Shown here: positions 30,637 to 48,197 of the stretch, piece after piece
Position numbering within the stretch: position 1 is the stretch's first letter
How the letters are laid out: each line of letters begins with the position of its first letter
NCBI GenBank assembly: GCA_963664705.1
Contig: OY761556.1
Coordinates: 3,040,001-3,104,000, forward strand
Direction: 5' to 3'
From: Acidobacteriota bacterium
Lineage (GTDB): Bacteria > Acidobacteriota > UBA6911
DNA length: 64,000 nt
Notes under the pieces: model-generated
Told to the model about the DNA's origin: nothing
Seen by the model: the letters and a program-made list of their open reading frames with translations, nothing else
The model's database searches: none
Program-made: the position numbers and the translations under genes

Positions 30637-31695
30637 CTAGTTGTCGAATCTACCGTACTTGCGCGCCGCATTTACGAGAGCGTCGACGTTTTCGGGAGGT
30701 GTATTGAAAGGGATTTCGCAGCCGGACGCGAGAATAAAGCCGCGGCGATCTCCCATTTTTTCGCAGATGGTCTTTGCTTCGGCATCAATTTCCTCCGGCG
30801 TATTCTTCAACATATTTGCCGGAGTGACATTGCCGACAAGCACTACCCTATGGCCCGCTACCGCTTTTGCCTGTCCGAGATCGACATTATCGAGACTCCA
30901 CATATCAAACTCGGCTTCGAGCATTGCGTTCCAGTTAGCAGTGGTTTTGCCGCAGATGTGGAGGACCGCGGGCAAACCTCCACCGTTTTTATGCACATGA
31001 TCCGTAAGACGCTTGAGATAGGGAGCCACGAACTCCTTGAAGTGCACAGGGCTGATCAGGCTGGCCGAGGCAACCGGCTCGACGATGAGCGGCAGCGCTT
31101 TGCGCGCGAGAATCTCATCAATGAACTTGATGCCTGCCTGCGTGCAGATTTCCATAAGTTCATGAACCCATGCTTTGTTTTTAATCAAAGCCCGCGTAAG
31201 TTGGTCCACCGGATACAAAGCACCAGCGGTGGTCAGCGGGCCTGCGAATACAGTAGAAACGCACACCTCACTGCCAACTTCTTTGACCGCAAGTTCAGTC
31301 GCCTCGAGATACACCGGCAATCGCCCATCTTTATTGAAATCCGGAACCTTGACCCTTTTCAGATCCGATCTTTCTTTGATGAGCGGCTCGGAAATTTGCG
31401 GTGCATCCTCTTCAAAAAACTGCATCTTGGTTCCCATCGCCTCGCCGAGCGTAGAAGTCGTGGAGAAAATCAGGATCGCGTCGTTTCCGTATCGTCGGAA
31501 TGCAGCGACATGAGCCTTGGCCATTGTCTTTGCATCGCGGTTATATTTCCCGATCGGGACGCCCAGCACACGGGCCGCGTGGTTGAGCACCAGCGGAAAG
31601 CATGCAATCCGTTGCGGCTTTTCCCCCTTGAGGTAGCAGATGATTCTTTCCAATGAAGACTGGGTATCAGCCGGAATAGAACTGGTTGTGCTCAT
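30637..31695 (-). CDS. UroD-fold corrinoid methyltransferase, second paralog
   Basis: GEAMG, LHICG, FILASGCEIP. Confidence 0.9.
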   Translation of the reverse strand: MSTTSSIPADTQSSLERIICYLKGEKPQRIACFPLVLNHAARVLGVPIGKYNRDAKTMAKAHVAAFRRYGNDAILIFSTTSTLGEAMGTKMQFFEEDAPQISEPLIKERSDLKRVKVPDFNKDGRLPVYLEATELAVKEVGSEVCVSTVFAGPLTTAGALYPVDQLTRALIKNKAWVHELMEICTQAGIKFIDEILARKALPLIVEPVASASLISPVHFKEFVAPYLKRLTDHVHKNGGGLPAVLHICGKTTANWNAMLEAEFDMWSLDNVDLGQAKAVAGHRVVLVGNVTPANMLKNTPEEIDAEAKTICEKMGDRRGFILASGCEIPFNTPPENVDALVNAARKYGRFDN

Positions 31696-32369
31696 TTAGC
31701 CCTCCCCAGGTTTGAACTGTTTTTCGCCACAAGCTTCTTTGCAAGTTCGACCGCATTGGTTGCATTATCCGCATAACCGTCAGCGCCTATCTTTTTTGCA
31801 AAGCCCTGGGAAATTGGTCCTCCGCCTACCATCACCTGAAATGAATTCCGGATCCCTTCTTCCTTGAGCATCTCGATGACGGTTGCCATGCCGTCCATGG
31901 TTGTGGTCATAAGAGTGGACATGCATATCAGTTCTGCGTTGATTTCCTTTGCTTTCTCGACAAAATCGGCCAGTGGGACATTTCTGCCGAGATCATGCAT
32001 TTCAAATCCGGCGACATCCATCATGATTCTCACAAGATTTTTGCCTATGTCGTGTGTGTCGCCTTCCATGACACCGATAACCGCTTTGTGCTTTTCCACC
32101 GTCGAATCCATCTTAAGATGGGGTCGAAGTATCTCCAGACCTGCATACATGGCATCCGAACAGATCAGCAGTTCAGGTACAAAGTATTCTTCCTTCTCAT
32201 ACAGGACGCCTGCTTTATTCATGCCTGCAACCAGGCCGAGGTTGATGGCATCATAAGCGTCATATCCGGCCTCGACCACTTCTCTTGCAGCTTTCACCGC
32301 CAATTCCTCATCCATGAGGAACACTCCGTCCATGAGATCCTTAAATAGATCCCCTCTTTCTCTGGGCAT
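31692..32369 (-). CDS. corrinoid (B12-binding) protein, MttC/MtbC-like
   Basis: EGDTHDIGKNLV (DxHxxG), STLMTTTM, VMVGGGP. Confidence 0.95.
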   Translation of the reverse strand: MPRERGDLFKDLMDGVFLMDEELAVKAAREVVEAGYDAYDAINLGLVAGMNKAGVLYEKEEYFVPELLICSDAMYAGLEILRPHLKMDSTVEKHKAVIGVMEGDTHDIGKNLVRIMMDVAGFEMHDLGRNVPLADFVEKAKEINAELICMSTLMTTTMDGMATVIEMLKEEGIRNSFQVMVGGGPISQGFAKKIGADGYADNATNAVELAKKLVAKNSSNLGRAK

Positions 32370-32595: not shown

Positions 32596-34509
32596 TCATG
32601 CCTTTGGCCCCAAAAAGCGAGTGTTATCAGGCGATCGTTTTGTAATACCAACCCTGTCCAGATAATCCAGAAGCGGCAGCGCATATTTGCGGGTTGCATC
32701 GATGAGATACTTAAACTGCACGCTTTCCATCCGCTTCTCTTTTTTAATGTGCTCTGTCACCAGTTCCCTTGCTTTTTCCACGGCTTCCGTGTGGAAGTAC
32801 ATATCTCCGGCTACTCGTATAAGGCGCCCATGCTCCGTAAGGAGACGCAGAGCCTCGGCTGCCTCTTTGGTGCCCAGCCCGCAAACTTGCATAACTTCTG
32901 CCCTATCGGGCGGGCTGAATATGCGTTGCAGGAATAGAGACTCCACATCCTGCAGACGTTTCTCTTCTGCAATGTCAAATCGAACGCTGTGCGATGCAAG
33001 AAGCACGCGATCTCCTGTTTTACGAATTTTGCCTCGGGATTCGAGTTCACTCAGCAGCCTTCGAATAACAGGTTTGGGCAGCTTGGATGTGGTTTGGCAG
33101 CTCTCGATTTCCAGCCCGGGGCTGGCCGGATCCTCCCGATGATATTTGGATATCTCTTCCAGCAGTTCCTGCGATAGTCTCTCGAAAGTGTCTGCGTGGA
33201 TAGTAAGGCTTTGCTCGAGGATCATTATCTTTGCGGAGTCGGCAAGCGACTGAACTATTCCCTCTGCGCAGCGTACTGTCTTCTTAATTCTTTGGGCGAT
33301 AGCCTTGATGGTTAATGCCTGGTCTGGGACCGTGCGGATAGCATATTCAGCGAACTCCGCATCGTCTCGCACGGCTTTAGCTCGACAATGCACATCTTCG
33401 AGTACGACGGGCCTGTTTCGTTTCAGCTTTCGTTCCAGCGCTTCGATGATCACTCCACCGCCGATAGTCTGAACGGGCGATAAGCTTCGCAAGATGAAGC
33501 GGTCCATCGGACCGGCCACGATAGGTTGGCTAAGTTGCACCTGCACAAGCGCGCGCTCCCCGCCACGAGAAACATCCCCTTCGAGCGTGTATACGGTTGC
33601 GGTATTCTCCGAAGTGCCGGTATGGAATTTCACCGAAGATCCGTTCTTGAGATACAGCCCATCGAGAGCCAGCATATTCAATTCGCACAAAAATAGATTG
33701 GCCGGAGTGAACCATCCTTCCACTGTAATGACATCCCCCCGGGAAATCGTATCCTGGTCCCATTGCGGCACATTAATCGCGGCACATTGTCCGCATTGCA
33801 CCCGATCCGACTGGGTCGCATAAACCTGAATTGCTTTTATCCTTCCGGTCGAAGCCTGAGGATAAATGATCACCTGTTCTCCCAAGCCGGCGGAACCACT
33901 GACAGGTATGCCGGATACGATCGTTCCATACCCTTTTACCGAGAAGGTGCGCTCGACGGGCAAACGGAATATGCCGTCTGTCTGTTTTGGCTTCAGGTTC
34001 TGAACCAAGTTCGCAAGTCCTTCATAAAACGGCTCGAATCCTTCTCCAGTAATGTTTGAAAAGGGAAAGATCGATGCGTTTTGTAGGAATGTCCCATGAA
34101 GGTAAGTGCGGATTTCCTGAGTAACGGTTTCGACACGCTCCGGAAGGACCTTGTCCACCTTGGTCAAAACGACAACGCCGTGCTGCACACCCAGCAGCGA
34201 CAGGATGTCCAGGTGCTCCCGTGTCTGCGGCATCACGCCATCATCGGCTGCAATAACAAAGATCACGGCATCGATCCCTGTAGCCCCAGCCACCATAGTC
34301 TTGACAAAGTTCTCATGCCCGGGAACATCTACAATCCCCACCTCGAGATCGGCGATTTTCCAGGGAGCAAAACCCAGCTCTATCGACATCCCCCTTTCTT
34401 TTTCTTCTTTCAACCGGTCGGTTTCGCACCCAGTCAGGTTCCCGACCAGGGCTGTTTTGCCATGATCGATATGGCCCGCGGTTCCAAGCGTAATGTTCTT
34501 TTGATTCAT
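32596..34509 (-). CDS. selB: selenocysteine-specific elongation factor SelB
   Basis: GTAGHIDHGKT, DVPGHE, C-terminal winged helix TRKYALPLLDYLD; follows selA. Confidence 0.97.
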   Translation of the reverse strand: MNQKNITLGTAGHIDHGKTALVGNLTGCETDRLKEEKERGMSIELGFAPWKIADLEVGIVDVPGHENFVKTMVAGATGIDAVIFVIAADDGVMPQTREHLDILSLLGVQHGVVVLTKVDKVLPERVETVTQEIRTYLHGTFLQNASIFPFSNITGEGFEPFYEGLANLVQNLKPKQTDGIFRLPVERTFSVKGYGTIVSGIPVSGSAGLGEQVIIYPQASTGRIKAIQVYATQSDRVQCGQCAAINVPQWDQDTISRGDVITVEGWFTPANLFLCELNMLALDGLYLKNGSSVKFHTGTSENTATVYTLEGDVSRGGERALVQVQLSQPIVAGPMDRFILRSLSPVQTIGGGVIIEALERKLKRNRPVVLEDVHCRAKAVRDDAEFAEYAIRTVPDQALTIKAIAQRIKKTVRCAEGIVQSLADSAKIMILEQSLTIHADTFERLSQELLEEISKYHREDPASPGLEIESCQTTSKLPKPVIRRLLSELESRGKIRKTGDRVLLASHSVRFDIAEEKRLQDVESLFLQRIFSPPDRAEVMQVCGLGTKEAAEALRLLTEHGRLIRVAGDMYFHTEAVEKARELVTEHIKKEKRMESVQFKYLIDATRKYALPLLDYLDRVGITKRSPDNTRFLGPKA

Positions 34510-34533
34510 AACTTTCCGATGCGGAATACAGCT

Positions 34534-35937
34534 TTATAAAATCTGACGTAAGGCTTCGATCACGATGGAATCTTCTCCCGGCAGGAGCGTCCTTGGATCA
34601 AATAACACTTGCTCGTTTTGAATCCTCGCAATGATGGGTATTCGGTGCTGGCGCAGCCTGAGAACCAGCGTCTGCGCGGATATTACTTTTGGAGTGATCA
34701 CCAGCAGTGTTGTTTGAAGGTTCTGGTCGGGCAGAGATCCACTGCCTGTCTGCGAAAATCCCTGAACTGTTTTGATTTCTGCCTGCGGTTGGGCCTCTCC
34801 AAGTTTGGCCGCCAATGTTTCAGCAGCAACCTGAAGATCTTCCGGTTTCCGAAGAATCATCTCGAGTGTGGGAAGTTTACGTTCAGCATTTTTTGAGTCG
34901 AGGAAAAGCCTGAGAGTCGCTTCCAGAGCTGCAAGAGTCAATTTGCCTACCCGCAGAATACGCGCAAACTGGTTTTTCCGGATCGCCGCTATTAAATCCG
35001 ATCTCCCAAGGATGATCCCTCCCTGCGAAGCGCCGATCAGCTTGTCAGCACTGCTGGTTATGAGGTCCGAGCCTGCCGCGATGGATTGTGGCAACGTCGG
35101 TTCCGGTTCAAAGCCATACCTCGACATATCTACCAGGGATCCCGCACCCACATCATCGATCAGAACGAGTTTATGTTTGTGGGCGATCTGTACCATCTCA
35201 TCGAGAGGCACCTCTGAGGTGAACCCGTGGATTTTGTAATTGCTGGGATGCACTCGAAGAAGCGCAGCCGTGTTTTCCGTAATTGCCCTCTCATAGTCCC
35301 TGGCATGCGTTTTGTTCGTGGTCCCGACTTCCACCATCCGGGCGCCGCTGAAGGCCATTACGTCCGGAAGCCTGAACTCTCCACCAATTTCGACGAGCTG
35401 GCCCCTGGACACAATCACCTCCTTACCCTTCGCGATTGTGTTGAGTACAATGGAGGTTGCGGCCGCGTTGTTGTTGACAACGGTAGCGGCCTGCGCGCCG
35501 GTAAGGCGGCAAAGAAGGGTCTCAACGCCTTCATCCCTGGATGATCTTTGGCCTGAACCTAAACCGATCTGGAGCCTGGAGTATCCGGCAAGTTCCTCCC
35601 TTATCTCCTCAAGAGCTTCCTTTGCGAGTACGGCCCGGCCCAGTGCCGTGTGCAAAATTATGCCTGTGGCGTTGATCACCTTTTGATAAAACGGCCGCTT
35701 CATTGAATTCAGGGCGCCGAGAGTCTGGCTGAGGATCTCCTTGGAAATATCGCTTTTGCTCTTGTCCTTATAAGCGCCCTTTTGGATTTTGGCTCGGACC
35801 TTTTCTTTGACCTCGCGCACGGTCAGGGTAATGATTTCGGGGTTGAACCCGATGCCTGCCGATTGCAGTTCCGCTGATTTGAGTATGACGTCAACAGAAG
35901 GAAGATTTCGCAGGGCTTGATTCTCCTGGTTTTTCAT
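34534..35937 (-). CDS. selA: L-seryl-tRNA(Sec) selenium transferase SelA
   Basis: LRNLPSVD, VINATGIILHT, VNNNAAA, SRGQLVEIGGEFRLP, SADKL (PLP Lys). Confidence 0.97.
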   Translation of the reverse strand: MKNQENQALRNLPSVDVILKSAELQSAGIGFNPEIITLTVREVKEKVRAKIQKGAYKDKSKSDISKEILSQTLGALNSMKRPFYQKVINATGIILHTALGRAVLAKEALEEIREELAGYSRLQIGLGSGQRSSRDEGVETLLCRLTGAQAATVVNNNAAATSIVLNTIAKGKEVIVSRGQLVEIGGEFRLPDVMAFSGARMVEVGTTNKTHARDYERAITENTAALLRVHPSNYKIHGFTSEVPLDEMVQIAHKHKLVLIDDVGAGSLVDMSRYGFEPEPTLPQSIAAGSDLITSSADKLIGASQGGIILGRSDLIAAIRKNQFARILRVGKLTLAALEATLRLFLDSKNAERKLPTLEMILRKPEDLQVAAETLAAKLGEAQPQAEIKTVQGFSQTGSGSLPDQNLQTTLLVITPKVISAQTLVLRLRQHRIPIIARIQNEQVLFDPRTLLPGEDSIVIEALRQIL

Positions 35938-36064
35938 AGGTCCCCATTCCGGAGTTAAACATCGCTCGAACCTGCGCTATGTCGCGCAACTTCTTACAAT
36001 CAGTAGTATGAGAATTGAAATCAGATAATGGGTAGACGGCGGACCGACGTTAGCGTTGGGACAC

Positions 36065-36112
36065 TCAGGTATATCCGGAGAAGGTATGGATAGATTGTGC
36101 AGACCCGATCAC
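36065..36112 (-). promoter_or_regulatory. leader peptide B, (M)IGSAQSIHTFSGYT-UGA, upstream of selAB
   Basis: GGAG SD 7 nt before GTG; ends TTC TCC GGA TAT ACC TGA; conserved arm at 36035-36050. Confidence 0.75.
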
Positions 36113-36139
36113 AAGCAGACTCCAATTAATGGTTATCGC

Positions 36140-36169
36140 ATTATCAATCCGACCTTGCCAAACCGTCAA
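36140..36169 (-). promoter_or_regulatory. sigma70-type promoter for leader B and selAB
   Basis: TTGACG-N18-GATAAT on the minus strand. Confidence 0.55.
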
Positions 36170-36520
36170 TAGTTTTTTCAAGGGAGCAATTTTGAAATTT
36201 GGTGCCTTTTGAGGTAAGCGGGGAATGGCGGCAAAGCGAAAGGAATTGCAAAAAGGACCGAAACAAATTATCGTGACGATTCGTTGATTGGACAAGAAAG
36301 TGAGTTTGCCTTGAAAACGGCAGTTTGGAAAACCTGGGAAGGCGGTTGAGTCGCGGCACACGATGCTCGTGGCGAGTTCGCTGGATGCCGGCCCGGGAGT
36401 GGCAATGCCGTAACTGCTTTTTGATTTCATTCCGTTCCATCTCTTAGGCTGCATCACATCCCATTCACAACCACAAAGATCAGCGCGGATTGGTTCCGCC
36501 TCAATTTGTTTCCTTGCCTA

Positions 36521-38143
36521 ATGAGATCTACTATGACGATCAATATTGAGCGACGAAGACGTGCAATGCAGCGTTCTGTTCGCCTGGGGCACTGTGTGTG
36601 CGACCCCGCAAAGCCCTGCCCCTGCGACCTGTTCAAGGAAAAAGACATTTGCCTCTGTGCCGGCGAGCGGTTGGAGGCTCCGGTCGGACCTGTCGCACTG
36701 ACGCAGTTGGTGGAGAAAGCCGGGTGCGCGTCTAAAATCGATCAAGCGTTTCTTAAGGCTACGCTTAATAATTTGCCCACCTTCGATGATCCGCATGTTT
36801 TGGTGGGAATGCCCGCGGGCGATGACGCCGGCGTGTACGAAATTGGAAATGGGATGGCGTTGGTGCAAACCGTGGATGTATTCACGCCTTCTGTAGACGA
36901 CCCATACCTATTTGGTCAGGTGGCAGCGGCTAATTCCCTCAGCGATGTTTATGCTATGGGTGGACGGCCGATCACCGCATTGTCAATTGTCGGATTTCCC
37001 GTGCGCAAGGTCCCGGACAGCGCCCTTCATGAAATAATGCGCGGCGGCATAGATAAAATGAAAGAAGCTGGGGTCCCGGTCATCGGCGGCCACAGTATCG
37101 ATGACGATCAGATAAAGGCAGGCTTTGCCGTAACCGGACTCATCCAAACCGATCAGGTAGCCACGAATGCTAATGCCCAGGTCGGTGACTTGCTAATTCT
37201 GACAAAGCCGCTGGGGACAGGAATTGTGGCCTTCGCCCGGCAAATCGGACGTGCCGAGGAAGAATCGGTAGCCGCTGCCGTGCAATCAATGACAACGCTC
37301 AATAAGGCAGCGGCAGAGCAAATGGCGGCGCACAATGTTCATTCTTGCACAGATGTCACCGGTTTCGGGCTTATGGGGCACTTGTCGGAAATGGCCTTGA
37401 GGAGCGGAGTTGATATTGAACTGCTCTGGGATAGTCTCCCCTGGTTCCCTGGTGTTTTGCAATATGTTGCCGATGGCATTCTTCCGGGAGCCATCGAGCG
37501 AAACAAAGAGTCGTGCGGAGACCGCGTATTTTCCGGCAGCGGGATCAGTGAACTTATGCTGGATATGTGCTTCGATGCTCAAACTTCGGGAGGGTTGCTC
37601 ATGGTGGTCGACCCGAAAAACTCGGAAACGCTTTTAAGCGCGCTACACCTCGCAGGCATCCCGGATGCATGTGTCATCGGCAACGTCCGGCAAAAAGGCG
37701 AAGGCCGCGTCTTTCTTGAAACCAATGGGAGAAGGAGATTACCTATGTCGAAAGATCAATCCAAACCCACTCCAACGCCGCAGGAATCCGCGTGCTGTAC
37801 GGAACAGGCCCAACAAGCTTCCTGCTGCAGCCCTGAAATCCAGACTGCCGGCTGTTGCTCCGGTGAGGCAGAATCAGCCGCCGAGTCGGGCGCGGAAGCA
37901 CTCTATGGGCAGTTTCTTTCCGCGGTAGGAAAGCCCGGAAGTCTGGATGCATTCACCAAACAGGCGATCAACATTGCGTTGGCGGTGGGGACCCGATGTG
38001 AACCCTGCCTAAAAGCCCACATTCAGAAGGCAAAACAAAACGGTTTCACACCGGCCGAGATAGATGAGGCCGCGTGGATGGGGGTGGGATTCGGAGGGTC
38101 GCCTGCTCTGATGATGTATACACGATTAAAAAATAGCAAATAG
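36521..38143 (+). CDS. selD: selenophosphate synthetase SelD with N-terminal Cys-rich extension and C-terminal AhpD/CMD-like domain
   Basis: AGCASKI, DDAGVY, QTVDVFTP, ANSLSDVYAMGG, TDVTGFGLMGH, DAQTSGGLL; C-terminal RCEPCLKAH. Confidence 0.95.
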   Translation: MRSTMTINIERRRRAMQRSVRLGHCVCDPAKPCPCDLFKEKDICLCAGERLEAPVGPVALTQLVEKAGCASKIDQAFLKATLNNLPTFDDPHVLVGMPAGDDAGVYEIGNGMALVQTVDVFTPSVDDPYLFGQVAAANSLSDVYAMGGRPITALSIVGFPVRKVPDSALHEIMRGGIDKMKEAGVPVIGGHSIDDDQIKAGFAVTGLIQTDQVATNANAQVGDLLILTKPLGTGIVAFARQIGRAEEESVAAAVQSMTTLNKAAAEQMAAHNVHSCTDVTGFGLMGHLSEMALRSGVDIELLWDSLPWFPGVLQYVADGILPGAIERNKESCGDRVFSGSGISELMLDMCFDAQTSGGLLMVVDPKNSETLLSALHLAGIPDACVIGNVRQKGEGRVFLETNGRRRLPMSKDQSKPTPTPQESACCTEQAQQASCCSPEIQTAGCCSGEAESAAESGAEALYGQFLSAVGKPGSLDAFTKQAINIALAVGTRCEPCLKAHIQKAKQNGFTPAEIDEAAWMGVGFGGSPALMMYTRLKNSK

Positions 38144-38177
38144 ATCGAGCAGGCAAACAAGTTGACCTAATTCACGC

Positions 38178-38207
38178 TTGACCTTGTATTGCAGGATGCC
38201 GTAAATT
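38178..38207 (+). promoter_or_regulatory. possible sigma70 promoter for tRNA-Sec
   Basis: TTGACC-N18-TAAATT, 7 nt before the tRNA 5' end. Confidence 0.45.
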
Positions 38208-38214
38208 CATCAGC

Positions 38215-38309
38215 GGAGGTGACGGGGGCCCGGTGGCTCCCGCGGTCTTCAAAACCGTTGAGCCGCCTTTAAAGCGGCAGGTGGGTTCAACTCCCATTCG
38301 CCTCCGCCA
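38215..38309 (+). tRNA. selC: tRNA-Sec (anticodon UCA)
   Basis: 95 nt; 8-bp acceptor stem GGAGGTGA/TCGCCTCC; loop CTTCAAA with TCA at 38249-38251; long variable arm; GCCA end. Confidence 0.97.
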
Positions 38310-38341: not shown

Positions 38342-39091
38342 TTATCTTGTTGCCCGCAAATATACTCCCTCGGTGTACCTGGATGTGGTGTATCCGGTTT
38401 TGCCGAGAATCTTAGCCGAACGAAATCCGGCTTCGCCTAGTTTCGCCAGGTAGTCCCCACCCGGCAACGCTCCGGCGATTCAGGTCGACCAGGCATCCAT
38501 GCTCGCCAATGTCTCTTCTGGAATGCTTTCTACCACCACAAGATCGGCGGCCACAAAATTTCCGTCCGGACGTAACACCCGAGCGATCTCCCTAAAGGCT
38601 TTATCCTTATCAGGGACCAGGTTTAGAACACCGTTTGAAATCACGAAATCGAATGACGCATTTTCAAAAGGCAATTCTTCAGCCGATCCCTCTTGGAAAC
38701 GAAGGTTTTGCATAGCGGTTTCCGCCCGGGCTTTGCAGGCCCAATCGAGCATTTCGGCCGTAAAATCAATGCCGAAAACCAGTCCCTCCGGCCCCGCCAG
38801 GAGCGCTGAGACAAAAGAGTCAAGACCACAGCCACAGCCGATATCAAGGACTCGCTCTCCTTTACGCACGGAACGGATGCTGAATGGATTCCCCACTCCG
38901 ACGAATCTATCCACGACATCCTTCGGAATAGTACGGATCAACTCACGAGGGTATCCAAGCCGTTCCAAGCTCTCTTGTCCGACAGGATAGGGGAACAGAC
39001 CTTCCGCCTTATGCGAAACACCTCGGTATTTGCTCTTTATGGCAGACTGCAGTCGTTCTTTCCAATTGTCAGCGAAACAATTATCCGTCAC
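38342..39091 (-). CDS. ArsM (arsenite methyltransferase)-like SAM-dependent methyltransferase, selenoprotein (Sec204, UGA at 38480-38482)
   Basis: GVGNP, VLDIGCGCGLD, SNGVLNLVPDK; W-S-T-U-IAGAL matches the ArsM WxxCIAGA motif; frame continues 45 codons to TAA; 11-bp SECIS-like stem TTGCCGGGTGG-GGA-CTACCTGGCGA starts 12 nt after the UGA. Confidence 0.88.
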
Positions 39092-39195
39092 TTAACAGGC
39101 GCTCCCGTGTTGGTTTTCACCCTATAATTCCATTACTGCCTCTAATTGTAGAATCGCTCATGCTATGATAATAATGATTTTGTTGGACAGATACG

Positions 39196-39210
39196 ATGCA
39201 GATTTCGCAT
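39196..39210. promoter_or_regulatory. LysR recognition box ATGC-N7-GCAT
   Basis: perfect T-N11-A dyad overlapping the LysR start, about 65 nt upstream of the start site implied by a TACAAT -10 (39145-39150, minus strand) of the divergent methyltransferase. Confidence 0.55.
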
Positions 39211-40131
39211 AGAATAATTTCCCAACTGAATTTTCAACACTTGCGCACATTCCAGATATTGGCACGCCTTGAGAACTTCTCCAGAACAGGCGATCAAGTC
39301 GGACTATCGCAATCAGCCGTTTCAAGGCACATCAGTGCGTTGGAAGAGGCATTGGGGCTACGGCTATTTGAACGTATCGGACGGCGCGCAATATTGACCT
39401 CGGCCGGAAGAATTTTGCGAGAACGAATTGAGACGCTTATGCGAGAAGCCGATGCTCTGCCGAACATTCTTAAAGATTTGGCAGAAGGGATACAGGGCGA
39501 TCTCAGGATTGGCGCCTGCATTACCGCCGCAAATGCCATTCTTCCGCAAGCTCTCGGGTTGTACAGGCATCAGTACCCACACATCGGGCTTTCACTTCAA
39601 CCGGGCAATAGTTCTGATATTATCGAATGCCTTCGACGGGGTGAGATCGATCTTGCATTTGTTGCCTCGGACAGGTTGCCTTCCGATGTTAAAACTCTGG
39701 CGGAAATTGCGGATGATCTGATTTTATTCGCCTCGCCGGATCACCCAATCTCGATCAAGCGTAACATTGAAGCGAATGATCTCGCTGATTGCGACTTTAT
39801 CCAGCGAGAGGCTCCATCAGACACACACTCGATGGTCACGCGTTGGCTAGAAGCGAAAGGAATTCAGTTGCGAAATCTGATGGATGTGTGGTGACCGGAC
39901 ACTATCAGGCGCCTGGTAGGCGCTGGGTTGGGAATATCTGCACTGTCCCGCCGATTAATTGCGGACGAACTCCTGAAGAGAACTCTTAAGGAGTTGCGAG
40001 TCAAAGGATGGCCGCTGTCCAGGAAAATTCGAATTGCTGTTATGAAGGAGTATTTTTTGTCCAGGGCAACGAAGCAGTTCCTTCAGTTGCTGCGACACAA
40101 GGTCCCGGAGGGACGGTTCTTTGATGCCTAA
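39196..40131 (+). CDS. LysR-type transcriptional regulator with in-frame UGA (candidate Sec233 at 39892-39894)
   Basis: HTH motif LSQSAVSRHISALEEALGLRLFER; read-through gives MDVW-U-PDTIRRLVGAGLGISALS and a typical 311 aa length; hairpin CAGGCGCCT-GGT-AGGCGCTG with its loop 20 nt after the UGA. Confidence 0.85.
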
Positions 40132-40252: not shown

Positions 40253-41350
40253 TTACTTCTTCTTTTCCGCCCCTCTCTTTCCGCCCAGGTTGAACTGAAC
40301 ACCCAATTGCAGGCTGGTTTTTGCAAAATCTGCAGCTCTTTGGGTATTGGTGAAATCCAACCCGACATATTGATGAAGGCGAACAGGAACAGTGAGGTAG
40401 TAGGTCGCGAACCCCGCATCCCAAGCTATTCCCGGGGAAAGCGAAACCATGTACCCTGGCTGACGGTATCCAGATGTGGCGGTTAAAACGTTATAAACCG
40501 GAACACCAGCAACCTGGCTGCCGACAGACAACGAAAAGCGCTTGAAATGTGGAACAGCCGTGGATATGCCGCCGCTAAACTGGTAGGAATCCGGAGCGGT
40601 CAGATAGCGTACATTTTCCGCAACTGCCTGCGGACCGGCCGGGTTTACGGCCGCACCGAACGCGATGGTGTCGTTTTGCTTTTTGAGACTGAATAGGTAA
40701 AGCCCGCTTCCATAGACGCTGAATCGCCCTATCGAGCGGAACCCTTGAGCAGACAGCCTCAAGCCTAAAGCACCACTGCCAGGCTGAACAGCAGGATACA
40801 CGGGACGATTGATAATATTTGCCCCTTTGGAGTCGGGATAGGGGACCTGATAATTGGACTCCCCGGTTGGCAACCGAAGTCCCAAACCAACACTGATGTT
40901 CTGTTTGGTATTTTTTTCAGGATTCAGCAACCACATCCGGCCGCCAATGACGGCATCGCCGAAACCGTGCACGTGCTGATAATAGCGAGTGCCTGCGACT
41001 ACATTGCTCCAATAAGACCAGAGAACATAGGGAACTTCGGCGGTAAGGTTGATCCTGCGGGAGAGGCCATAGGCTCCCTGTAGATTCAGTGTGTCGCCTC
41101 CCTCCCACACCGAATTTGTCGATATGACGTCGTACCCACGAAACGTCTCATCGGTCGCAAATCGACCCCAATAGCTATTCAACTGAAACTGGCCCTTTTG
41201 CAGGTACGGGCCCATCATGCCGCCACGCATGGGCGACATACTCTTGGACAAAATTCAACCACAGCCCTGCGAGAATGCAGACTGAGGTATGAGTAGAGCG
41301 AGGCCGATTACCATCGGTAACAGCCAGCTCAAGTAATCACACTTCCTCAT
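40253..41350 (-). CDS. exported beta-barrel protein, paralog 1, candidate selenoprotein (signal peptide, then QG-C-G-U; UGA at 41255-41257)
   Basis: AAGGA SD; MRKCDYLSWLLPMVIGLALLIPQSAFS/QGCG-UGA-ILSK in frame with the 332 aa ORF; GFGD...LRLPTG barrel motif; hairpin ATGTCGCC-CATGCGT-GGCGGCAT after the UGA. Confidence 0.85.
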
Positions 41351-41388
41351 CGAAACATTCCTTTCTAGCATAGTTTTCTCTATTGCAC

Positions 41389-41403
41389 ACAAGCAACGTG
41401 CCA
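41389..41403 (-). promoter_or_regulatory. possible sigma54 -24/-12 promoter
   Basis: TGGCAC-N5-TTGT, one mismatch to TTGC. Confidence 0.3.
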
Positions 41404-41494
41404 CATTGTGGTCGAATGAGTCCTTCGCATGCAAATATATTTGAATATTATAATAATGAGAAATACGGATAAGATCTCAGGTAAGGCGGACTGG

Positions 41495-42934
41495 TTATTT
41501 GGAGGGCGCAGCTTCCATATTGGCAATCGCGAACAACTCGCTTCGACTCATGATGTATAAAGCTCCATTCGCAGCAACCGGTGTGCTGTACACAGAACTA
41601 CCCATTAAATTCTTCGCGAGAGTCTTTTGCTTTTTGCCGGCCAGAAAAACAGCAACATCGCCATCTTCATCCGCGAGATATATCTTCCCGTCTGAAAGCA
41701 GCGGAGATCCCCAAATTGCAGACTGCAGATCGTAATTCCAATAGGATTTCCCGGTTTCACTGTCGAGACAATGCAGAACGCCGCTGAAATCGGAGATATA
41801 CACCAACCCATCGGCAATGGCCGCGGTCGAAATAGAGCGGCGGACTTTGTCGCTGTGCCAGACCCGTCCACTTTCGGTGATATCGCCGCTTTGGGATGGA
41901 TCAATACTGTACATATGACCGGGGCCTTCTCCATGTTCCGGATCCTGACCGCTGGGAACGAAGACCCTGTTATTAAAGAAGACCGGAGTAGCAATTCCGT
42001 AATTTTTTGTTTTGGGCCAGACTGCGTTTTTGGGGTTCAAATCAAAGGACCAGAGCCTCTCTCCGGTACGCGCATTGAAGCCGTAGAGCCATCCATCACC
42101 GCCGGGAAAGAAAACCTGCATCGTTCCATTGACTTCACCTAGAGCCGGCGAAGCCCATTGTCCGTGAAGGATATGATCGCCAGGTGAATTATCCTGCCAG
42201 ACAACTTTGCCGGAGTTTTTATTGACAGCAATGAAGCTTGGGGCTTTAGGCGCAAAGACCTTCTCGTGATTTTCCGATACACCGTTTGAGGTCTCCACGA
42301 AAATCAAGTCGCCCCAAATAACCGGCGAGGAGCTGGCCATGTTGTGCGCATAGGTCCCCAACTCCTGCATCATATCGAGCTTCCAGATTACATCCGCATC
42401 CAGTTTGCTTTTATAGGCTTCATTCTGAACCGGACCGTCATTTTTCCCATCTTGAAATCCCTCAGTATCCAGGCAGACGAGTTCGCCGCGATTTGTAACA
42501 TAATAGAGACGCTTTCCTTCCACTGCGGGAGAAGAACACACTCCCTGTTCCGGCCAATCGTTGGCCGGACCTGAATCCAGCTTGTCCGTTACCGCCTGCC
42601 AGAGAAATTGACCGTCAGATTCGCGGAAGCACATCAGGATTCCCTTGTCGTCTTTAATTTCCGGATTTCGCGCATGCGCATTGTTGGTTCCAACAAACAC
42701 TTTTCCGTCTGCAACAACGGGGTTACCGTAGGATGTATCCCCAAGTGCTGCTCTCCATTTTATGTTGCTGCCAGTCTTGAGATCCCAGGTCGAGGGCAGC
42801 CCGACAATGGAACTAATCATATTTCGCTGAACCGATCCTCCCCACATGGGCCAGTCCTGAGATACAAGCGGCAGAATGGAAGCCGCCAGCAATAGGGTTG
42901 CAGCACAAACAATTATAAAGTGCACGTGGCGCAT
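41495..42934 (-). CDS. exported PQQ-binding-like beta-propeller (BamB-like) protein
   Basis: signal peptide, DWPMWGG, repeated SSP...G.VY...G..W blades. Confidence 0.88.
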   Translation of the reverse strand: MRHVHFIIVCAATLLLAASILPLVSQDWPMWGGSVQRNMISSIVGLPSTWDLKTGSNIKWRAALGDTSYGNPVVADGKVFVGTNNAHARNPEIKDDKGILMCFRESDGQFLWQAVTDKLDSGPANDWPEQGVCSSPAVEGKRLYYVTNRGELVCLDTEGFQDGKNDGPVQNEAYKSKLDADVIWKLDMMQELGTYAHNMASSSPVIWGDLIFVETSNGVSENHEKVFAPKAPSFIAVNKNSGKVVWQDNSPGDHILHGQWASPALGEVNGTMQVFFPGGDGWLYGFNARTGERLWSFDLNPKNAVWPKTKNYGIATPVFFNNRVFVPSGQDPEHGEGPGHMYSIDPSQSGDITESGRVWHSDKVRRSISTAAIADGLVYISDFSGVLHCLDSETGKSYWNYDLQSAIWGSPLLSDGKIYLADEDGDVAVFLAGKKQKTLAKNLMGSSVYSTPVAANGALYIMSRSELFAIANMEAAPSK

Positions 42935-43032
42935 GGTCTTCTCGAATATCTTGCGATTATCTCATCGGATCTTGGATCCTTTAAGGTGGCGCTAGTCTGC
43001 CGCCTCAAGGGATCGCCGCACAAAGAACAGGT

Positions 43033-43572
43033 CTAAGGCTTTTCGGCGCCTGTTTTATCCGGGGAAGCATCCAATGCCTCCATGATCTTTGCTTCGAGTG
43101 CCTTCTCGTCCCCTCGGTTGTAACCATTCTGATAAAACAGAACCTCGTTCTTTCTGCCGAGCAGATAGTGGGTCGGTGTCATCGTGAGGCGATAATCATC
43201 CATAAGATCATCTTGGGATACACCCAGCAATACGGGCACGGTTATGTGATATTTCTCCGTCCAGCCTGCAATCAGTTTGCTTTCATCCGGCTTGACGTTG
43301 ATTATGACGTAGGACAACCCTTGTTCCTTATATTTGTCGTATATCTTCAGGACTTCTGGTATCGCAAGATTGCAATAAGCGCAACTTGGATAATAAAAGG
43401 CTACCAGGGTTAATTTGTTTGCAAAATCCGGCAAGGTTTTCGTGATGCCTTCGGGAGTTTTCAGCTTGAACGGTTTAAACTTTTCTGCTGCAGGCCCGAG
43501 GGTCGTTAATAGAATAAGGCAACAGACAGTCAGGATGGTAATTTGAATGCTTTTCCTATCGCTTCTTGTCAT
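43033..43572 (-). CDS. exported TlpA/ResA-like thioredoxin-fold redoxin
   Basis: signal/TM segment, FKLKT, FYYPSCAYC (CxxC), cis-Pro TPTHYLL; AAGGA SD. Confidence 0.85.
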   Translation of the reverse strand: MTRSDRKSIQITILTVCCLILLTTLGPAAEKFKPFKLKTPEGITKTLPDFANKLTLVAFYYPSCAYCNLAIPEVLKIYDKYKEQGLSYVIINVKPDESKLIAGWTEKYHITVPVLLGVSQDDLMDDYRLTMTPTHYLLGRKNEVLFYQNGYNRGDEKALEAKIMEALDASPDKTGAEKP

Positions 43573-43683
43573 TTTGTATTCCTTGCAAATGCACTCATTG
43601 ATCACATTCAGGCAAACAAAAATGTCCGCATAATTCAGCGGGCAGCCACAGATGGCCACCCGCCGAAATAAACAGAATATCAA

Positions 43684-44787
43684 CTATTTTGCTGGTTTCT
43701 TTCCGCCGAGGCTGAAAGTCACGCCGAATTGCAGACTCATTTTATTCAGATTCCCGCTTTGCTGGGTGCCGGTAAAGTCCTTCAATATACCACCCCACAC
43801 ACGGACGGGAACTGTTAGAAAATAGGATCCAAGCTTTGTTCTCAGCGACAGGCCTGGGTTCAATGTTACAAGATATCCTGGCTGCCGATATCCCTCGGAA
43901 CCAGTCAGGACATTAAACGTCGGCACTCCCGCAATCTGGCTGCCCAAAGAGACGGAGAGCCCCTTCAAATGCGGGACAGGCGCGGACATGCCGGCATTAT
44001 ATAGATAGGAATCGGGCGTGGCGTTATAGCGCTTATTCGCCGCTACGGCGTCAGGCCCACCCGGGTTAAATGTGGACATGATTGACTGGGTATTGTTCTG
44101 CTCCTTGAAACTGAACAGATATAGAGCATTTGCATACACAGCGAAATGGCTGAACCTTCGGTATCCCTGCATTGCCACTCGGAGCCCGGCCGCACCGCTG
44201 CCAGGTTGTACGTCCGATTTTGCAGCATGGAGCTTGATATCCTGTCCCAGAATATTGGGGAACATAACCTGATAGTCCGAGTTTCCAGTAGGTAATCTGA
44301 AGGCCAACTGGAAGGCCATGTTCTGTTTTGTATTCTTTTCAGGATTGAAGAGCCATACGCGCCCGCCAATTATGGCATCACCCAGGCCTTTGGTTTTCAT
44401 TTCACGCCGTGAGCCTGCAATGGGATAGTTCCAGTAGGAATCGAGTAAGACCGGAACATCTGCGGTGATGTTGATTCTGCGGGTAAGGGCATACGCGCCC
44501 TGGAAGTTTAAGGATGTGCCACCCTGTTTTGGAGCCGCGTCCGCATTAATGAGGTCGCTCCGCAACTGGGTTCCGGTGAAGTATTGGTCGCTGTTAAACC
44601 GATTCAAACTGCCTTGAATCTGCCATTCTCCCTTTTCCAGATAGGGTCCAAGTAGGCCGCCGCTCATGGGGGCCACATTTCTTGCTAAAATTCAACCACA
44701 ACCTTGTGAAAACGCGCTCTGTGGCGCAAGCAGAGCCAGGCAAAGTGCCCACGGCACCAGCCAGCCCAGCAATTTCATCTTTGTCAT
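43684..44787 (-). CDS. exported beta-barrel protein, paralog 2, candidate selenoprotein (QG-C-G-U; UGA at 44692-44694)
   Basis: AAGGA SD; MTKMKLLGWLVPWALCLALLAPQSAFS/QGCG-UGA-ILAR; UGA is codon 32 in both paralogs; GGCC...GGCC hairpin downstream. Confidence 0.85.
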
Positions 44788-45845: not shown

Positions 45846-48197
45846 TTAAGCTTTACCAAGCGCTTTAAGCACCTTATCCGGCGTGGCAGGCGGGTCTACC
45901 CATTTATCAATTGCATTGTAAATGGCACAGATGATCATATGTGTGTTTGACATGGAATGGCTGATGCCGTTGGCCCCGTAGGTTCCATTGCCGGCGCGCG
46001 TTTCAACCAGACTCGTCTGTAGCTTCGGCACATCCAGCATGCCCGGTTTTTTGTACTCGATCATGTTGGTATTGAGTTTTACGCCGGTCTGCTTATCGTA
46101 GAAGTAGTCTTCAAACATCTGGCATCCCTGGCTGAAGAACGCAACCTGGTCGAGTTGCCCCTCAAGCGAAATGCGCCTGATTACTTTGCCCGAGTCCACC
46201 GCGGCTCCGTACCTCAGGATTTCCACCTCACCCGTTTCTGTATCGACAGCCACTTCGCAGTACAGAGTATTCAGTGTGTCATACTTGCTGGGCCATAGCG
46301 GTGCGGGAGGATGCCCGGCAAATGTCGCAAATACGTTTGACGAGAGACTCTTGATTGGTACCCCGGCAGTCTTGTCTGACTTGAGTACTATTTTGCCATT
46401 TACTATATCCAGGTCTTCCGGCTTCTTGCCCTTCAACGGGTTTGGAGCCGTCTTTCGCGGCGGTCCGAATCCTCCAGCCGCCGGTTTGTCCGCTTCAGCA
46501 ATCGCCGCTTCAAAAATGCGCTGTCTGAATATCTGGCAGCATTCTTTCATGACCCAACCCGTAGCTACAAGTCCGTCTGCCCCTCCGCTAATAGACACGA
46601 ACATTGCATTGGGATCATAATCAATGCTGATATCCGCAGCTTCCAGGCCGAGCTCTTCTGCGGCAATCATGGCAACGCCTTCAACAGAAAATACCCCAGC
46701 ATGGGGACCCTGGATCGGCATGTGCACAACTCCGTTCCGAAGCTCGAGCACTGCGTGAAAATCACTGCCCATTGCATGCCTTGGGCACATCTGGTATCTG
46801 AAACCGGCCCCGTGCATCCTGCCGTCAGGCAGTTTCTTTGCGCCGTTTTTATGCCAGGTCCAGTTCATCATTTTCTTTCCGGCTTCGATGCAGGCGTCAA
46901 AGCTGGGAACCGATCTTGTGTCCTTCTGTCCGTCAGGCCCATGGAGGTTCAGCCTGGCAATATCGATTGGGTCTTTCCCAAGTTTCTCGGCAATTATATG
47001 AATTGCCATAGTAACGGAGTCCCAATTGAAGGGACAAAATTGCGAACTGAATGGCATCAGACCGCGATTGCTGTCCACGATATCCATTCTCTGCCGGATG
47101 TTAAGGCATTTTGTTCCTATGTACGGTCCGTAACCCTGATCGCCAATAGTCCCGAAAAATGAATTGCCTGTAGTGCCGCCGTCGGCAATAGAGAAATCAT
47201 CGAAAGCGGTAATCAGTCCGTCCTTTGTAAATCCCACCTTCATGTGAATAAAACGCTGCTGAATCATGAAATCAAAGGTGTCCTTGCGTGTGTTTATGCA
47301 ACGCACGGGCCTTCCGGTCCTCTTTGCCAGAAGCGGCGTAATCTGCTGGGATCGTCGTATCGTCCAGTCGCAGTACTTGCCACCCTGAAAGAGCCCTTCC
47401 TGTACCGTCTTTTCCGGCGGCAGACCGTACAATTGTCCGATCGCGTTTTTGCCGCCGCTGGCGTGCCAGACAGCGCCTTCTATATGGAGATTATCTCTTC
47501 CAAGGTAAGGATCATCGAACCACCACGCTACGGAACTGTGCGGATTGGGAGAAGCGGAAGCATACGTAGGCATGTTTAGGTCGTATTCGATAATGTAATC
47601 GGCTTCCTTGAAACCTTGCTCTACATCTCCCTGGTTTTGATTTGAATAGGAAACATTCCCTTTTTTCGGAGGATTGTTATTCCCTCCCCCACCGAAAGGA
47701 TTGCTGGGACCGCCTCTATCCTCGGGCCGAATCACCGGAGCGCTGGCTTCTCTTCCCGCTTTGATATCCACGACATGCGGAAGGATTTCCCATTCCACAT
47801 TAAGTGCCTTTAAAGCCTCATCGCAGATATCTCCATTTTCCGCTACCACAATGAATCCCACTTCTATGTTTTCTTCTTCTGCAACATCGGAAATAAAAGG
47901 CTGGGGCGCACCGCCCATGCCGCCACGCTGCAGCTTTTTTAAGTCTTCATCCTTCCATGTGACGATATCCACAACTCCGGGAACAGCCTTGGCTTTTTCG
48001 AGATTGAAACTTTTTATCCTTGCGTGCGCATGAGGACTGCGCAGAAATTTGGCTTCGAGCATATTGGGAACGACATAATCGATTCCGAATTTAGCGAGAC
48101 CCGAGGCAACTGCCCATGACAGTTTGCCGGGCAGGTTTGCCCTGCCGACTACCCTGAAATCCTCTCTTTGTCCGTTAGTTCCTGTTAAATCAGCCAT
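45846..48197 (-). CDS. xanthine dehydrogenase-family molybdopterin-binding subunit (atypical active-site motifs)
   Basis: LRSPHAHARI, LAKRTGRPV, EVAVDTETGEV, VDSGKVI. Confidence 0.88.
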   Translation of the reverse strand: MADLTGTNGQREDFRVVGRANLPGKLSWAVASGLAKFGIDYVVPNMLEAKFLRSPHAHARIKSFNLEKAKAVPGVVDIVTWKDEDLKKLQRGGMGGAPQPFISDVAEEENIEVGFIVVAENGDICDEALKALNVEWEILPHVVDIKAGREASAPVIRPEDRGGPSNPFGGGGNNNPPKKGNVSYSNQNQGDVEQGFKEADYIIEYDLNMPTYASASPNPHSSVAWWFDDPYLGRDNLHIEGAVWHASGGKNAIGQLYGLPPEKTVQEGLFQGGKYCDWTIRRSQQITPLLAKRTGRPVRCINTRKDTFDFMIQQRFIHMKVGFTKDGLITAFDDFSIADGGTTGNSFFGTIGDQGYGPYIGTKCLNIRQRMDIVDSNRGLMPFSSQFCPFNWDSVTMAIHIIAEKLGKDPIDIARLNLHGPDGQKDTRSVPSFDACIEAGKKMMNWTWHKNGAKKLPDGRMHGAGFRYQMCPRHAMGSDFHAVLELRNGVVHMPIQGPHAGVFSVEGVAMIAAEELGLEAADISIDYDPNAMFVSISGGADGLVATGWVMKECCQIFRQRIFEAAIAEADKPAAGGFGPPRKTAPNPLKGKKPEDLDIVNGKIVLKSDKTAGVPIKSLSSNVFATFAGHPPAPLWPSKYDTLNTLYCEVAVDTETGEVEILRYGAAVDSGKVIRRISLEGQLDQVAFFSQGCQMFEDYFYDKQTGVKLNTNMIEYKKPGMLDVPKLQTSLVETRAGNGTYGANGISHSMSNTHMIICAIYNAIDKWVDPPATPDKVLKALGKA

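What the first reader, a model, noticed from the sequence alone, without database searches (positions are those of the whole stretch)
39196..40131. LysR transcription factor with in-frame UGA and a strong SECIS-like hairpin: candidate selenoprotein regulator and Se sensor
SEEN: the ORF track splits this gene into 232 aa and 67 aa pieces in the same frame. Reading UGA 39892-39894 as sense gives a 311 aa LTTR, ...NLMDVW-U-PDTIRRLVGAGLGISALS..., continuous with the LTTR effector-domain pattern xxETIKxxVxAGLGISxL. The stem CAGGCGCCT-GGT-AGGCGCTG has a G-first loop 20 nt after the UGA, fitting the bacterial SECIS model. The gene is 0.9 kb from tRNA-Sec and divergent from another Sec gene. KNOWN: the LysR regulator HrsM mediates Se-dependent regulation in Methanococcus but is not a selenoprotein; Sec is typical of redox enzymes. 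INFERENCE: full-length regulator is made only when Se is available, and/or Sec in the effector pocket senses a metalloid or oxidant.
Basis: partly seen in the sequence, partly recalled or inferred. Interest (0 to 1): 0.9.

Follow-up and report, generated by a model that had tools for sequence, protein, structure and literature searches.

The report
Selenocysteine-containing LysR regulator family
This regulator gene is not broken: its internal UGA stop codon sits at the same position, followed by the same RNA hairpin, in dozens of soil-bacterial relatives, so it very likely encodes selenocysteine, which would make it a selenium-containing gene switch absent from the selenoprotein catalogues searched.

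Summary
ORF 39196-39894 ends at TGA, and the same frame runs on to TAA 40129-40131, giving a 311-aa LysR-type regulator.

This is not a recent nonsense mutation:
- 106 of 112 homologous protein clusters (51-100% identity) stop at exactly this column.
- 37 of the 38 metagenomic loci that reach the column have an in-frame TGA there. One MAG has it too.
- The 76-94 codons after the TGA are under purifying selection.
- The hairpin 39908-39924, which lies 20 nt after the UGA, covers the four most codon-invariant columns of 86 conserved degenerate columns.

The genome encodes selA, selB, selD and tRNA-Sec, one full set beside the gene.

The family is one clade, and its nearest full-length relatives mostly carry Cys-Pro-Glu at this position.

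In an AlphaFold model (pLDDT 88.7), Sec233 caps a helix of regulatory subdomain II. YeiE's sulfite-pocket residues are largely conserved, but Sec233's YeiE equivalent is not among them.

Neighbouring genes point to metalloid and chalcogen handling: a Sec-type arsenite methyltransferase, MerT, ArsC-like and DsrE-like genes.

No LysR or DNA-binding selenoprotein appears in the reviews and NCBIfam release searched. This scan has noted other Sec-containing LysR regulators on other DNA, with Sec at a different position.

The sensing role of Sec is inferred, not shown.

The parts
39196..40131 (+). LysR-type regulator gene, 311 codons plus TAA. The HTH domain is residues 13-72 and the regulatory domain is 97-302.
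39892..39894 (+). In-frame UGA, predicted selenocysteine codon (residue 233).
   Evidence: There is a TGA at this column in 37 of the 38 related loci that reach it and in G437. 106 of 112 homolog clusters end here.
39908..39924 (+). Predicted SECIS hairpin: 7-bp stem and GGU loop (39915-39917), with the loop starting 20 nt after the UGA.
39145..39187 (+). Conserved upstream element: ATTnTAG, about 13 nt, then TATGAT-N3-AAATGATTTT(A/G)TTGG, ending about 9 nt before the start codon. It is likely a promoter and/or the regulator's own operator.
   Evidence: It is conserved in 13 of 13 aligned loci of both subtypes. Its function was not tested.
38351..39091 (-). Divergent arsenite-methyltransferase-like selenoprotein gene. 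Sec is at residue 204 (TGA 38480-38482, motif U-I-A-G). Its own hairpin has its loop 23 nt after the UGA.
   Evidence: The UxxG arsenite methyltransferase is listed as a known selenoprotein in PMC13188914.
38215..38309 (+). tRNA-Sec (anticodon UCA).
36506..38143 (+). selD (Cys form) fused to a C-terminal AhpD/CMD domain.
34537..35937 (-). selA.
32599..34509 (-). selB.

Best explanation
The gene at 39196-40131 is one uninterrupted 311-codon LysR-type regulator gene whose in-frame UGA (39892-39894) is predicted to be read as selenocysteine with the help of the conserved hairpin at 39908-39924.

Shown here:
- The UGA, the reading frame after it and the hairpin are conserved across a whole clade of relatives.
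- The genome has the full Sec machinery.
- The protein folds in silico as a complete LysR regulator only if the UGA is read through.

Inferred:
- SelB with Sec-tRNA would bind the hairpin and insert Sec233.
- The selenol sits at the N-cap of a helix in regulatory subdomain II, beside an oxyanion pocket of the YeiE (sulfite-sensor) type. It likely acts as the reactive sensing residue for a soft metalloid, chalcogen or oxidant species such as arsenite, selenite, Hg(II) or a reactive S/Se species.
- That reaction would shift the regulatory domain and change transcription of the divergently transcribed target. Here the target is a Sec-containing arsenite-methyltransferase-like gene.
- As a side effect, full-length regulator would be made only when selenium is available.
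For: (1) Conserved UGA. 106 of 112 homolog clusters at 51-100% identity end at exactly the residue before the UGA. 37 of the 38 metagenomic loci that reach the column have an in-frame TGA; the 38th, L111, is a frameshifted contig that still holds TGGTGACC. The Candidatus Acidoferrum MAG G437 has one TGA at the same place. A further 15 clusters of a sister subfamily (225-227 aa) end at the same column.

(2) The downstream part is translated. The frame stays open for 76-94 codons. dN/dS for codons 245-305 is 0.10-0.41 where dS could be computed, against 0.06-0.29 upstream. Pfam LysR_substrate spans the UGA. The AF2 model has pLDDT 87-97 over residues 230-309 (10-residue block means), and its regulatory domain superposes on YeiE's with TM 0.88-0.93.

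(3) Hairpin. In 13 sequences thinned to under 90% DNA identity, the four lowest codon-entropy columns of 86 conserved columns with at least 4-fold degeneracy are codons 239-242 (CGC CTG GTA GGC). 0 of 100,000 random sets of four columns score as low. The two single-base variants keep pairing as G-U (L108, L123).

(4) Machinery. selB, selA, selD and tRNA-Sec lie within 7 kb. G437 also has selA and tRNA-Sec.

(5) Sec/Cys relationship. The Sec forms make one clade (SH-aLRT 99-100). Its sister is a Cys-Pro-Glu protein, and 19 of the 27 rows in the neighbouring clade are Cys-Pro-Glu. 14 of the 27 full-length hits to the sister subfamily are Cys-Pro-Glu.

(6) Position. Sec233 follows strand 226-231 and caps helix 234-242. 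YeiE pocket residues N126, S127, R191, S195 and T197 align with conserved N138, S139, R204, S208 and T210.

(7) Context. An ArsM-like Sec methyltransferase is divergent in the window, L089 and L091. MerT plus an HMA protein are in L091, an ArsC-like gene in L094, and DsrE-like genes in L098 and L123.
Against: - There is no direct evidence of selenium in the protein, and no RNA run was listed.
- As a single sequence, the hairpin folds no better than shuffles.
- Covariation is not significant: 384 of 500 shuffles reach the observed score. The stem barely varies, and L117 breaks the two apical pairs.
- Sec233's YeiE equivalent (Asn in MELGNSEAIK) is not among the eight residues listed as lining the sulfite site. 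I could not measure distances in the model.
- No second Cys is universal in the clade. C199 is missing in the sister subfamily and C108 occurs only in the W-type.
- In the Cys-Pro-Glu clade, 8 of 27 rows have S, Q, G, A or W at the column, so a thiol there is not indispensable.
- Target genes differ between subtypes. DUF1264 is divergent in 4 of 4 G-type loci scanned.
- Closeness to sel genes is not conserved.
Confidence: 0.8

Rival explanations
1. The UGA is read as Sec, but Sec has no chemical role. The UGA and hairpin would be kept only as a translational gate, so that full-length regulator is made in proportion to Sec-tRNA and selenium supply, and a truncated inactive 232-aa product is made otherwise.
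For: No Cys-containing ortholog was found inside the Sec clade. All 106 end-at-column clusters and 37 loci have the stop, and the nearest full-length protein is only 36% identical. Relatives tolerate S, A, G or Q at this column. Sec233's equivalent is not a listed pocket residue in YeiE. In this genome the gene sits in a sel gene island.
Against: The neighbouring clades mostly keep Cys-Pro-Glu, often as C-P-E-T-C, at a helix N-cap. That pattern is typical of a reactive thiol. A gate could sit at any codon, yet the UGA never moves. In the other loci the gene is not next to sel genes.
Confidence: 0.13
2. The UGA is decoded, but not as Sec. It would be read as Cys by a tRNA-Sec look-alike, or as Trp/Gly by near-cognate read-through in the weak UGA-C context.
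For: The genome holds two different tRNA(UCA) genes and two selA/selB pairs. Earlier notes of this scan describe Cys-charging look-alikes of tRNA-Sec in other genomes. UGA is followed by C in all 37 loci.
Against: Both tRNAs score 70.6 bits on Rfam tRNA-Sec and are called tRNA-SeC by ARAGORN. selA and selB lie beside the window's copy. The conserved hairpin at SECIS distance would serve no purpose for plain read-through.
Confidence: 0.04
3. UGA is a true stop. The functional product would be the 232-aa protein, or the gene would be a pseudogene or an assembly error.
For: Gene callers and NCBI annotate 232-aa proteins, for example a 232-aa 'LysR family transcriptional regulator'.
Against: The downstream frame is open and under purifying selection in all the relatives. 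The regulatory-domain fold needs residues 247-302. Synonymous sites are saturated elsewhere in the gene (dS above 1 in most pairs), yet the stop and hairpin are fixed. Contigs from three runs agree.
Confidence: 0.03

Closest known systems
LysR_Se / HrsM, the 'selenium metabolism-associated LysR family transcriptional regulator' (NCBIfam NF040786; Lin et al. 2015, PMC5322559, passages read)
   Same: It is the best NCBIfam match (177 bits). Both are LysR regulators linked to selenium genes, and in this window the gene lies beside selD, tRNA-Sec, selA and selB.
   Different: The score is below the 250-bit cut-off. LysR_Se is not described as a selenoprotein in the passages read. The same genome has a separate canonical member (312 bits) with Ser at the column. 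In the other loci the Sec form is not next to sel genes.
YeiE / CysL sulfite-sensing LysR regulators (PDB 7erp, 7fdf, 8sbh; PMC8931317, passages read)
   Same: This is the closest regulatory-domain structure (TM 0.88-0.93, rmsd 1.7-2.6 A). Five of the eight pocket residues are conserved: N, S, R, S and T.
   Different: E145, which selects sulfite over sulfate, is replaced by Ala or Gly. S96 is Cys, Ser or Thr. YeiE has Asn where this family has Sec. The NCBIfam YeiE score is 172 against a cut-off of 480.
OxyR, the Cys199/Cys208 peroxide-sensing LysR regulator (PDB 6g1d, 4x6g)
   Same: It is a LysR regulator whose signal is chemistry at a reactive chalcogen residue at a helix N-cap of subdomain II. 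It appears among the structural matches.
   Different: The reactive residue sits at a different helix. By my hand alignment from recalled OxyR sequence, C199 falls near S208/D209, not at residue 233. There is no C208 equivalent.
Cys-Pro-Glu LysR relatives (e.g. P0127, P0300, P0302; unnamed or generically named)
   Same: These are the nearest full-length relatives (35-41% identity). They share the motif [C/U]-P-[E/D] at the same helix N-cap and the same pocket residues.
   Different: They have Cys instead of Sec, and 10 of 14 have a second Cys four residues later (C-P-E-T-C). Their function is unknown, and no DNA was available to check for a hairpin.
Other Sec-containing LysR regulators noted earlier by this scan (e1-7113356, e1-7670630)
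   Same: They are LysR regulators with an in-frame UGA and a hairpin, and also appear to be uncatalogued.
   Different: According to those notes, Sec lies at the OxyR Cys199-equivalent position and the hosts are marine sulfate reducers and relatives. I did not re-examine them.

Membership tests
Bacterial selenoprotein gene | In-frame UGA conserved at one column among orthologs | tested here: met
   37 of 38 loci, G437, and 106 of 112 clusters end at the column.
Bacterial selenoprotein gene | Coding sequence continues in frame after the UGA and is under protein-level selection | tested here: met
   There are 76-94 open codons. dN/dS is 0.10-0.41. The Pfam domain and the AF2 fold span the UGA.
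Bacterial selenoprotein gene | SECIS stem-loop just downstream of the UGA, with G in the apical loop at a suitable distance (bSECIS model parameters recalled, not read here) | tested here: met
   A 7-bp stem with a GGU loop starts 20 nt after the UGA. It is invariant at synonymous sites (0 of 100,000 random column sets score as low). Covariation itself is not significant.
Bacterial selenoprotein gene | Host encodes selA, selB, selD and tRNA-Sec | tested here: met
   G437 has selA and tRNA-Sec.
Bacterial selenoprotein gene | Cys-containing homologs at the Sec column | tested here: met
   14 of 27 full-length hits and 20 of the 31 non-Sec rows of the enclosing clade are Cys-Pro-Glu. None lies inside the Sec clade.
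Bacterial selenoprotein gene | Selenium physically present in the protein | not testable with these tools
   This needs 75Se labelling or mass spectrometry.
LysR-type transcriptional regulator | N-terminal HTH_1 plus C-terminal LysR_substrate domain, and the full-length fold | tested here: met
   Pfam E-values are 1.4e-19 and 4.7e-46. Foldseek TM is 0.82 to full-length CysB 9fdd_A.
LysR-type transcriptional regulator | Divergently transcribed target gene with a shared control region | tested here: inconclusive
   A divergent gene is present in the window and in L089, L091, L098, L123 and 4 of 4 G-type loci. A conserved upstream motif exists. Binding was not tested.
LysR_Se (NF040786) | Score at or above the curated cut-off (250 bits) | tested here: not met
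   177.3 bits.
LysR_Se (NF040786) | Gene next to Sec-decoding genes | tested here: inconclusive
   Met in the window. 0 of 41 related loci hold a tRNA-Sec, and no sel gene appeared among the 36 neighbouring ORFs scanned.
YeiE (NF040889) | Curated cut-off of 480 bits, and Glu145 in the pocket | tested here: not met
   171.7 bits. The Glu145 column is Ala or Gly.
OxyR | Cys at the C199 and C208 positions | tested here: not met
   NF008361 scores 80 bits against a cut-off of 329. The region reads REAPSDTHSMVTRWLEA with no Cys. The position mapping was done by hand from recalled OxyR sequence.

The most novel reading that the evidence does not exclude
An obligate-selenocysteine transcription factor. 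In this soil-bacterial LysR clade, the selenol at the helix N-cap would itself be the sensor. It would capture arsenite, selenite or Hg(II), or be oxidised, next to a YeiE-like oxyanion pocket, and so switch on metalloid-handling genes such as a Sec-dependent arsenite methyltransferase. The UGA would at the same time make the amount of regulator depend on selenium supply. That would be the first natural selenium-based allosteric switch in a DNA-binding regulator.
Probability: 0.4. Interest if true: 0.9.

Novelty: new variant of a known kind. Interest (0 to 1): 0.8.

Why it matters
Known selenoproteins are almost all redox enzymes or metal and sulfur carriers. A DNA-binding regulator that always carries Sec would extend selenocysteine into signal sensing and transcription control.

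- It offers a natural test of what selenium adds over sulfur in a sensor. Cys-Pro-Glu relatives exist for comparison.
- It links selenium status to arsenic, mercury and sulfur handling in widespread soil bacteria; the named records are Acidobacteriota and Terriglobales.
- In practice, more than 120 protein clusters in public databases are mis-called as 225-232-aa truncated LysR proteins.

Tried and rejected
- Both genome-contig scans were unproductive. The first found nothing. The second used generic HTH patterns and returned ordinary LysR genes; only L042, cut off by its contig end, was a true relative.
- Whole-genome searches found the gene only in G000 and G437. I searched 61 relatives, 401 genomes of the phylum and 401 of G437's order. 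With 400 genomes, only 5 candidates per genome were scored, so some may have been missed.
- No RNA holder was listed. Run X6, which has the same species label, gave no reads on the stretch, so it is no test.
- Single-sequence folding z-scores and the covariation shuffles give no support on their own.
- The first tree did not place the Cys forms near the Sec clade. Adding the sister subfamily and its hits changed this. That is a quick tree, because the careful search did not finish.
- A selenenylsulfide partner was rejected: no Cys is universal in the clade.
- The supplementary alignment of LysR_Se in PMC5322559, which shows the 'conserved proline', could not be read.
- No distances could be measured in the AF2 model.

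Full report
**Observation.**
- ORF 39196-39894 (+) encodes 232 aa and ends in TGA. A 67-aa ORF (39928-40131) lies in the same frame.
- With TGA read as Sec, the frame is open for 311 codons...NLMDVW-U-PDTIRRLVGAGLGISALS....
- Pfam finds HTH_1 at residues 13-72. It finds one LysR_substrate match at 97-302, covering profile positions 2-207 of 209, so the domain runs across the UGA.
- The hairpin GGCGCCU-GGU-AGGCGCU lies at 39908-39924, and its loop starts 20 nt after the UGA.
- tRNA-Sec is at 38215-38309 (Rfam 70.6 bits against a gathering score of 47).
- The divergent gene 38351-39091 (-) has its own in-frame TGA.
- As a single sequence, the hairpin folds no better than shuffled controls (z = 0.08; z = -1.63).

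**The stop codon is conserved, not recent.**
- A search of 5.8 billion proteins returned 112 clusters at 51-100% identity, almost all 229-235 aa long. Of these, 106 end with the residue just before the UGA (...M[DE]V[WG]). The other six are cut short or frameshifted.
- A metagenome scan with an effector-domain alignment returned 40 loci. Two end before the column.
- Of the 38 loci that reach it, 37 have an in-frame TGA there. It is followed by CCN in 36 and by CTG in one.
- The 38th locus, L111, is a frameshifted contig that still holds TGGTGACC.
- 24 of the 37 84-nt stretches around the TGA are distinct DNA sequences.
- A Candidatus Acidoferrum MAG (G437) has a 59%-identical gene with one TGA at the same place.
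- A sister subfamily of 15 clusters (225-227 aa, 39-45% identical) ends at the same column.

**The part after the UGA is translated.**
- The frame stays open for 76-94 codons in every locus that reaches its end.
- In 13 sequences thinned to under 90% DNA identity, synonymous sites are saturated in most pairs.
- dN/dS for codons 245-305 is 0.10-0.41 where dS could be computed. Upstream it is 0.06-0.29.
- An AlphaFold2 model built on alignment A3 has mean pLDDT 88.7 and pTM 0.79, with 10-residue block means of 87-97 over residues 230-309.
- The model matches full-length CysB (TM 0.82) and the YeiE regulatory domain (TM 0.88-0.93, rmsd 1.7-2.6 A).
- Strands 247-251, 265-267 and 274-283 and helix 290-302 belong to the regulatory fold. 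A 232-aa product would therefore lack part of it.

**The hairpin.**
- Among 86 conserved columns with at least 4-fold codon degeneracy, the mean codon entropy is 1.54 bits.
- The four lowest-entropy columns are codons 240, 242, 239 and 241, which read CTG, GGC, CGC and GTA.
- None of 100,000 random four-column sets scores as low.
- RNAalifold gives a 7-bp stem with a GGU loop. The two single-base variants become G-U pairs (L108, L123). The closing pair occurs as A-U, G-U, G-C and, in three sequences, A-C. L117 breaks the two apical pairs.
- Covariation is not significant: 384 of 500 shuffles reach the observed score. The support is therefore conservation at silent sites, not compensatory change.
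- The neighbouring methyltransferase gene has a comparable hairpin: an 11-bp stem whose loop starts with G 23 nt after its UGA.

**Sec machinery.**
- selB (32599-34509), selA (34537-35937), a selD-AhpD fusion (36506-38143) and tRNA-Sec lie just upstream.
- The genome holds a second selA, a second selB and a second, different tRNA-Sec elsewhere.
- G437 also has selA and tRNA-Sec.
- selA is found in 38 of 41 relatives, yet the Sec-LysR is found in only 1 of 61. It is therefore an accessory gene in a lineage that generally uses Sec.
- These tallies, and that, include the unpublished genome G046. No other claim rests on it.

**Family placement.**
- The best NCBIfam match is the selenium-metabolism-associated LysR family (NF040786) at 177 bits, below its 250-bit cut-off. 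YeiE follows at 172 bits, cut-off 480.
- No dedicated model for a Sec form appeared.
- The same genome has a canonical NF040786 member (312 bits) with Ser at the column.
- An exhaustive HMMER search of 1.84 billion representatives found no full-length protein above 37% identity.
- Among 146 full-length hits, the column holds S 72, N 27, H 9, C 9, T 9, G 7 and others 13.
- In a tree of 83 rows, the 17 Sec rows form one clade (SH-aLRT 99). This was a quick search, because the careful one did not finish.
- The sister of the Sec clade is the Cys-Pro-Glu protein P0127 (support 82). The next clade (support 95) has 19 Cys-Pro-Glu rows of 27.
- 14 of the 27 full-length hits to the sister subfamily are Cys-Pro-Glu, and 10 of those 14 read C-P-E-T-C.

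**Where Sec sits.**
- In the model, Sec233 follows strand 226-231 and caps helix 234-242.
- YeiE's published sulfite-lining residues are S96, S97, N126, S127, E145, R191, S195 and T197 (PMC8931317, passages read).
- By the alignment, these correspond to C108, I109, N138, S139, A157, R204, S208 and T210.
- Of these, N138, S139, R204, S208 and T210 are conserved in the family.
- Sec233 aligns with an Asn of YeiE that is not in that list. 'In the pocket' is therefore not shown, and I could not measure distances.
- No Cys is universal in the clade.

**Context.**
- The divergent gene is an ArsM-like Sec methyltransferase (motif UxxG) in the window, L089 and L091.
- L091 adds MerT and an HMA protein. 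L094 has an ArsC-like gene (161 bits, cut-off 174). L098 and L123 have DsrE-like genes.
- 4 of 4 scanned G-type loci have a divergent DUF1264 gene.
- No related locus holds a tRNA-Sec (0 of 41).
- A motif ATTnTAG...TATGAT-N3-AAATGATTTTATTGG, ending about 9 nt before the start codon, is conserved in 13 of 13 aligned loci.

**Literature.**
- Lin et al. 2015 (PMC5322559, passages read) define LysR_Se by its neighbourhood to sel genes. They do not call it a selenoprotein in the passages read.
- 'LysR' occurs 0 times in each of three sources: the 2026 review of the prokaryotic selenoproteome (PMC13188914), the deep-Sep paper (PMC12013277) and the 'Eight unexpected selenoprotein families' preprint. 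These were term searches only. 'DNA-binding' and 'helix-turn-helix', searched in the 2026 review only, also occur 0 times.
- The only regulator-like entry in the 2026 review is an FmdB-family protein.
- The 2022 review (PMC9312934) mentions LysR_Se only as a regulator.
- NCBI annotates one member as a 232-aa LysR protein.
- Earlier notes of this scan describe other Sec-containing LysR regulators with Sec at the OxyR Cys199 position, on other DNA. I did not re-test them.

**Verdict.** The gene is very probably a genuine selenoprotein gene and the founding example of a distinct, uncatalogued Sec-containing LysR clade. The mechanism is inferred from position, relatives and neighbours. It has two parts: the selenol as sensor for a metalloid, chalcogen or oxidant signal, and selenium-dependent synthesis as a built-in gate.

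Noticed in passing
window 32599-38309; G000:3461774, 3657373, 6559014: The genome carries two selA genes, two selB genes and two clearly different tRNA-Sec(UCA) genes. One full set, with selD, forms an island in the window. Several relatives also have two selA genes.
   Followed up: partly
window 36506-38143: SelD (Cys form) has a Cys-rich N-terminal extension and a C-terminal AhpD/CMD domain with a CxxC motif. That domain weakly matches the GSU3128 (seleno)protein family.
   Followed up: no
window 23087-32369: Directly upstream of selB lies a corrinoid methyl-transfer gene set: two URO-D-like methyltransferases, a B12-binding protein, a RACo activase, DUF1638 and a hydantoinase-like protein. 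A class-V aminotransferase (cysteine or selenocysteine lyase type) lies there too.
   Followed up: no
L091 3105-3981 (-): Behind the Sec methyltransferase sit a MerT-like gene ending at TGA and an HMA-domain gene. There is a weak match to the MerT/CopZ selenoprotein model NF045683 (66 bits, cut-off 375).
   Followed up: no
proteins P0311, P0125, P0298: These further LysR proteins of 222-233 aa end at the same alignment column (...MELG...VLAIP). They may be additional Sec subfamilies. No DNA was available.
   Followed up: no
window 40253-44676: Two paralogous ~330-aa proteins with no family match flank a PQQ-type beta-propeller and a redoxin. A PQQ_2 protein also lies near the regulator in L103.
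   Followed up: no
L111 / P0111: This metagenomic contig has two frameshifts around the UGA, so a gene caller produced a 201-aa protein that reads across it in the wrong frame. This is likely an assembly or sequencing error.
   Followed up: partly
window 45849-48197 and 51617-52795: A xanthine-dehydrogenase-family molybdenum enzyme and a Mutator-family transposase lie downstream of the island.
   Followed up: no
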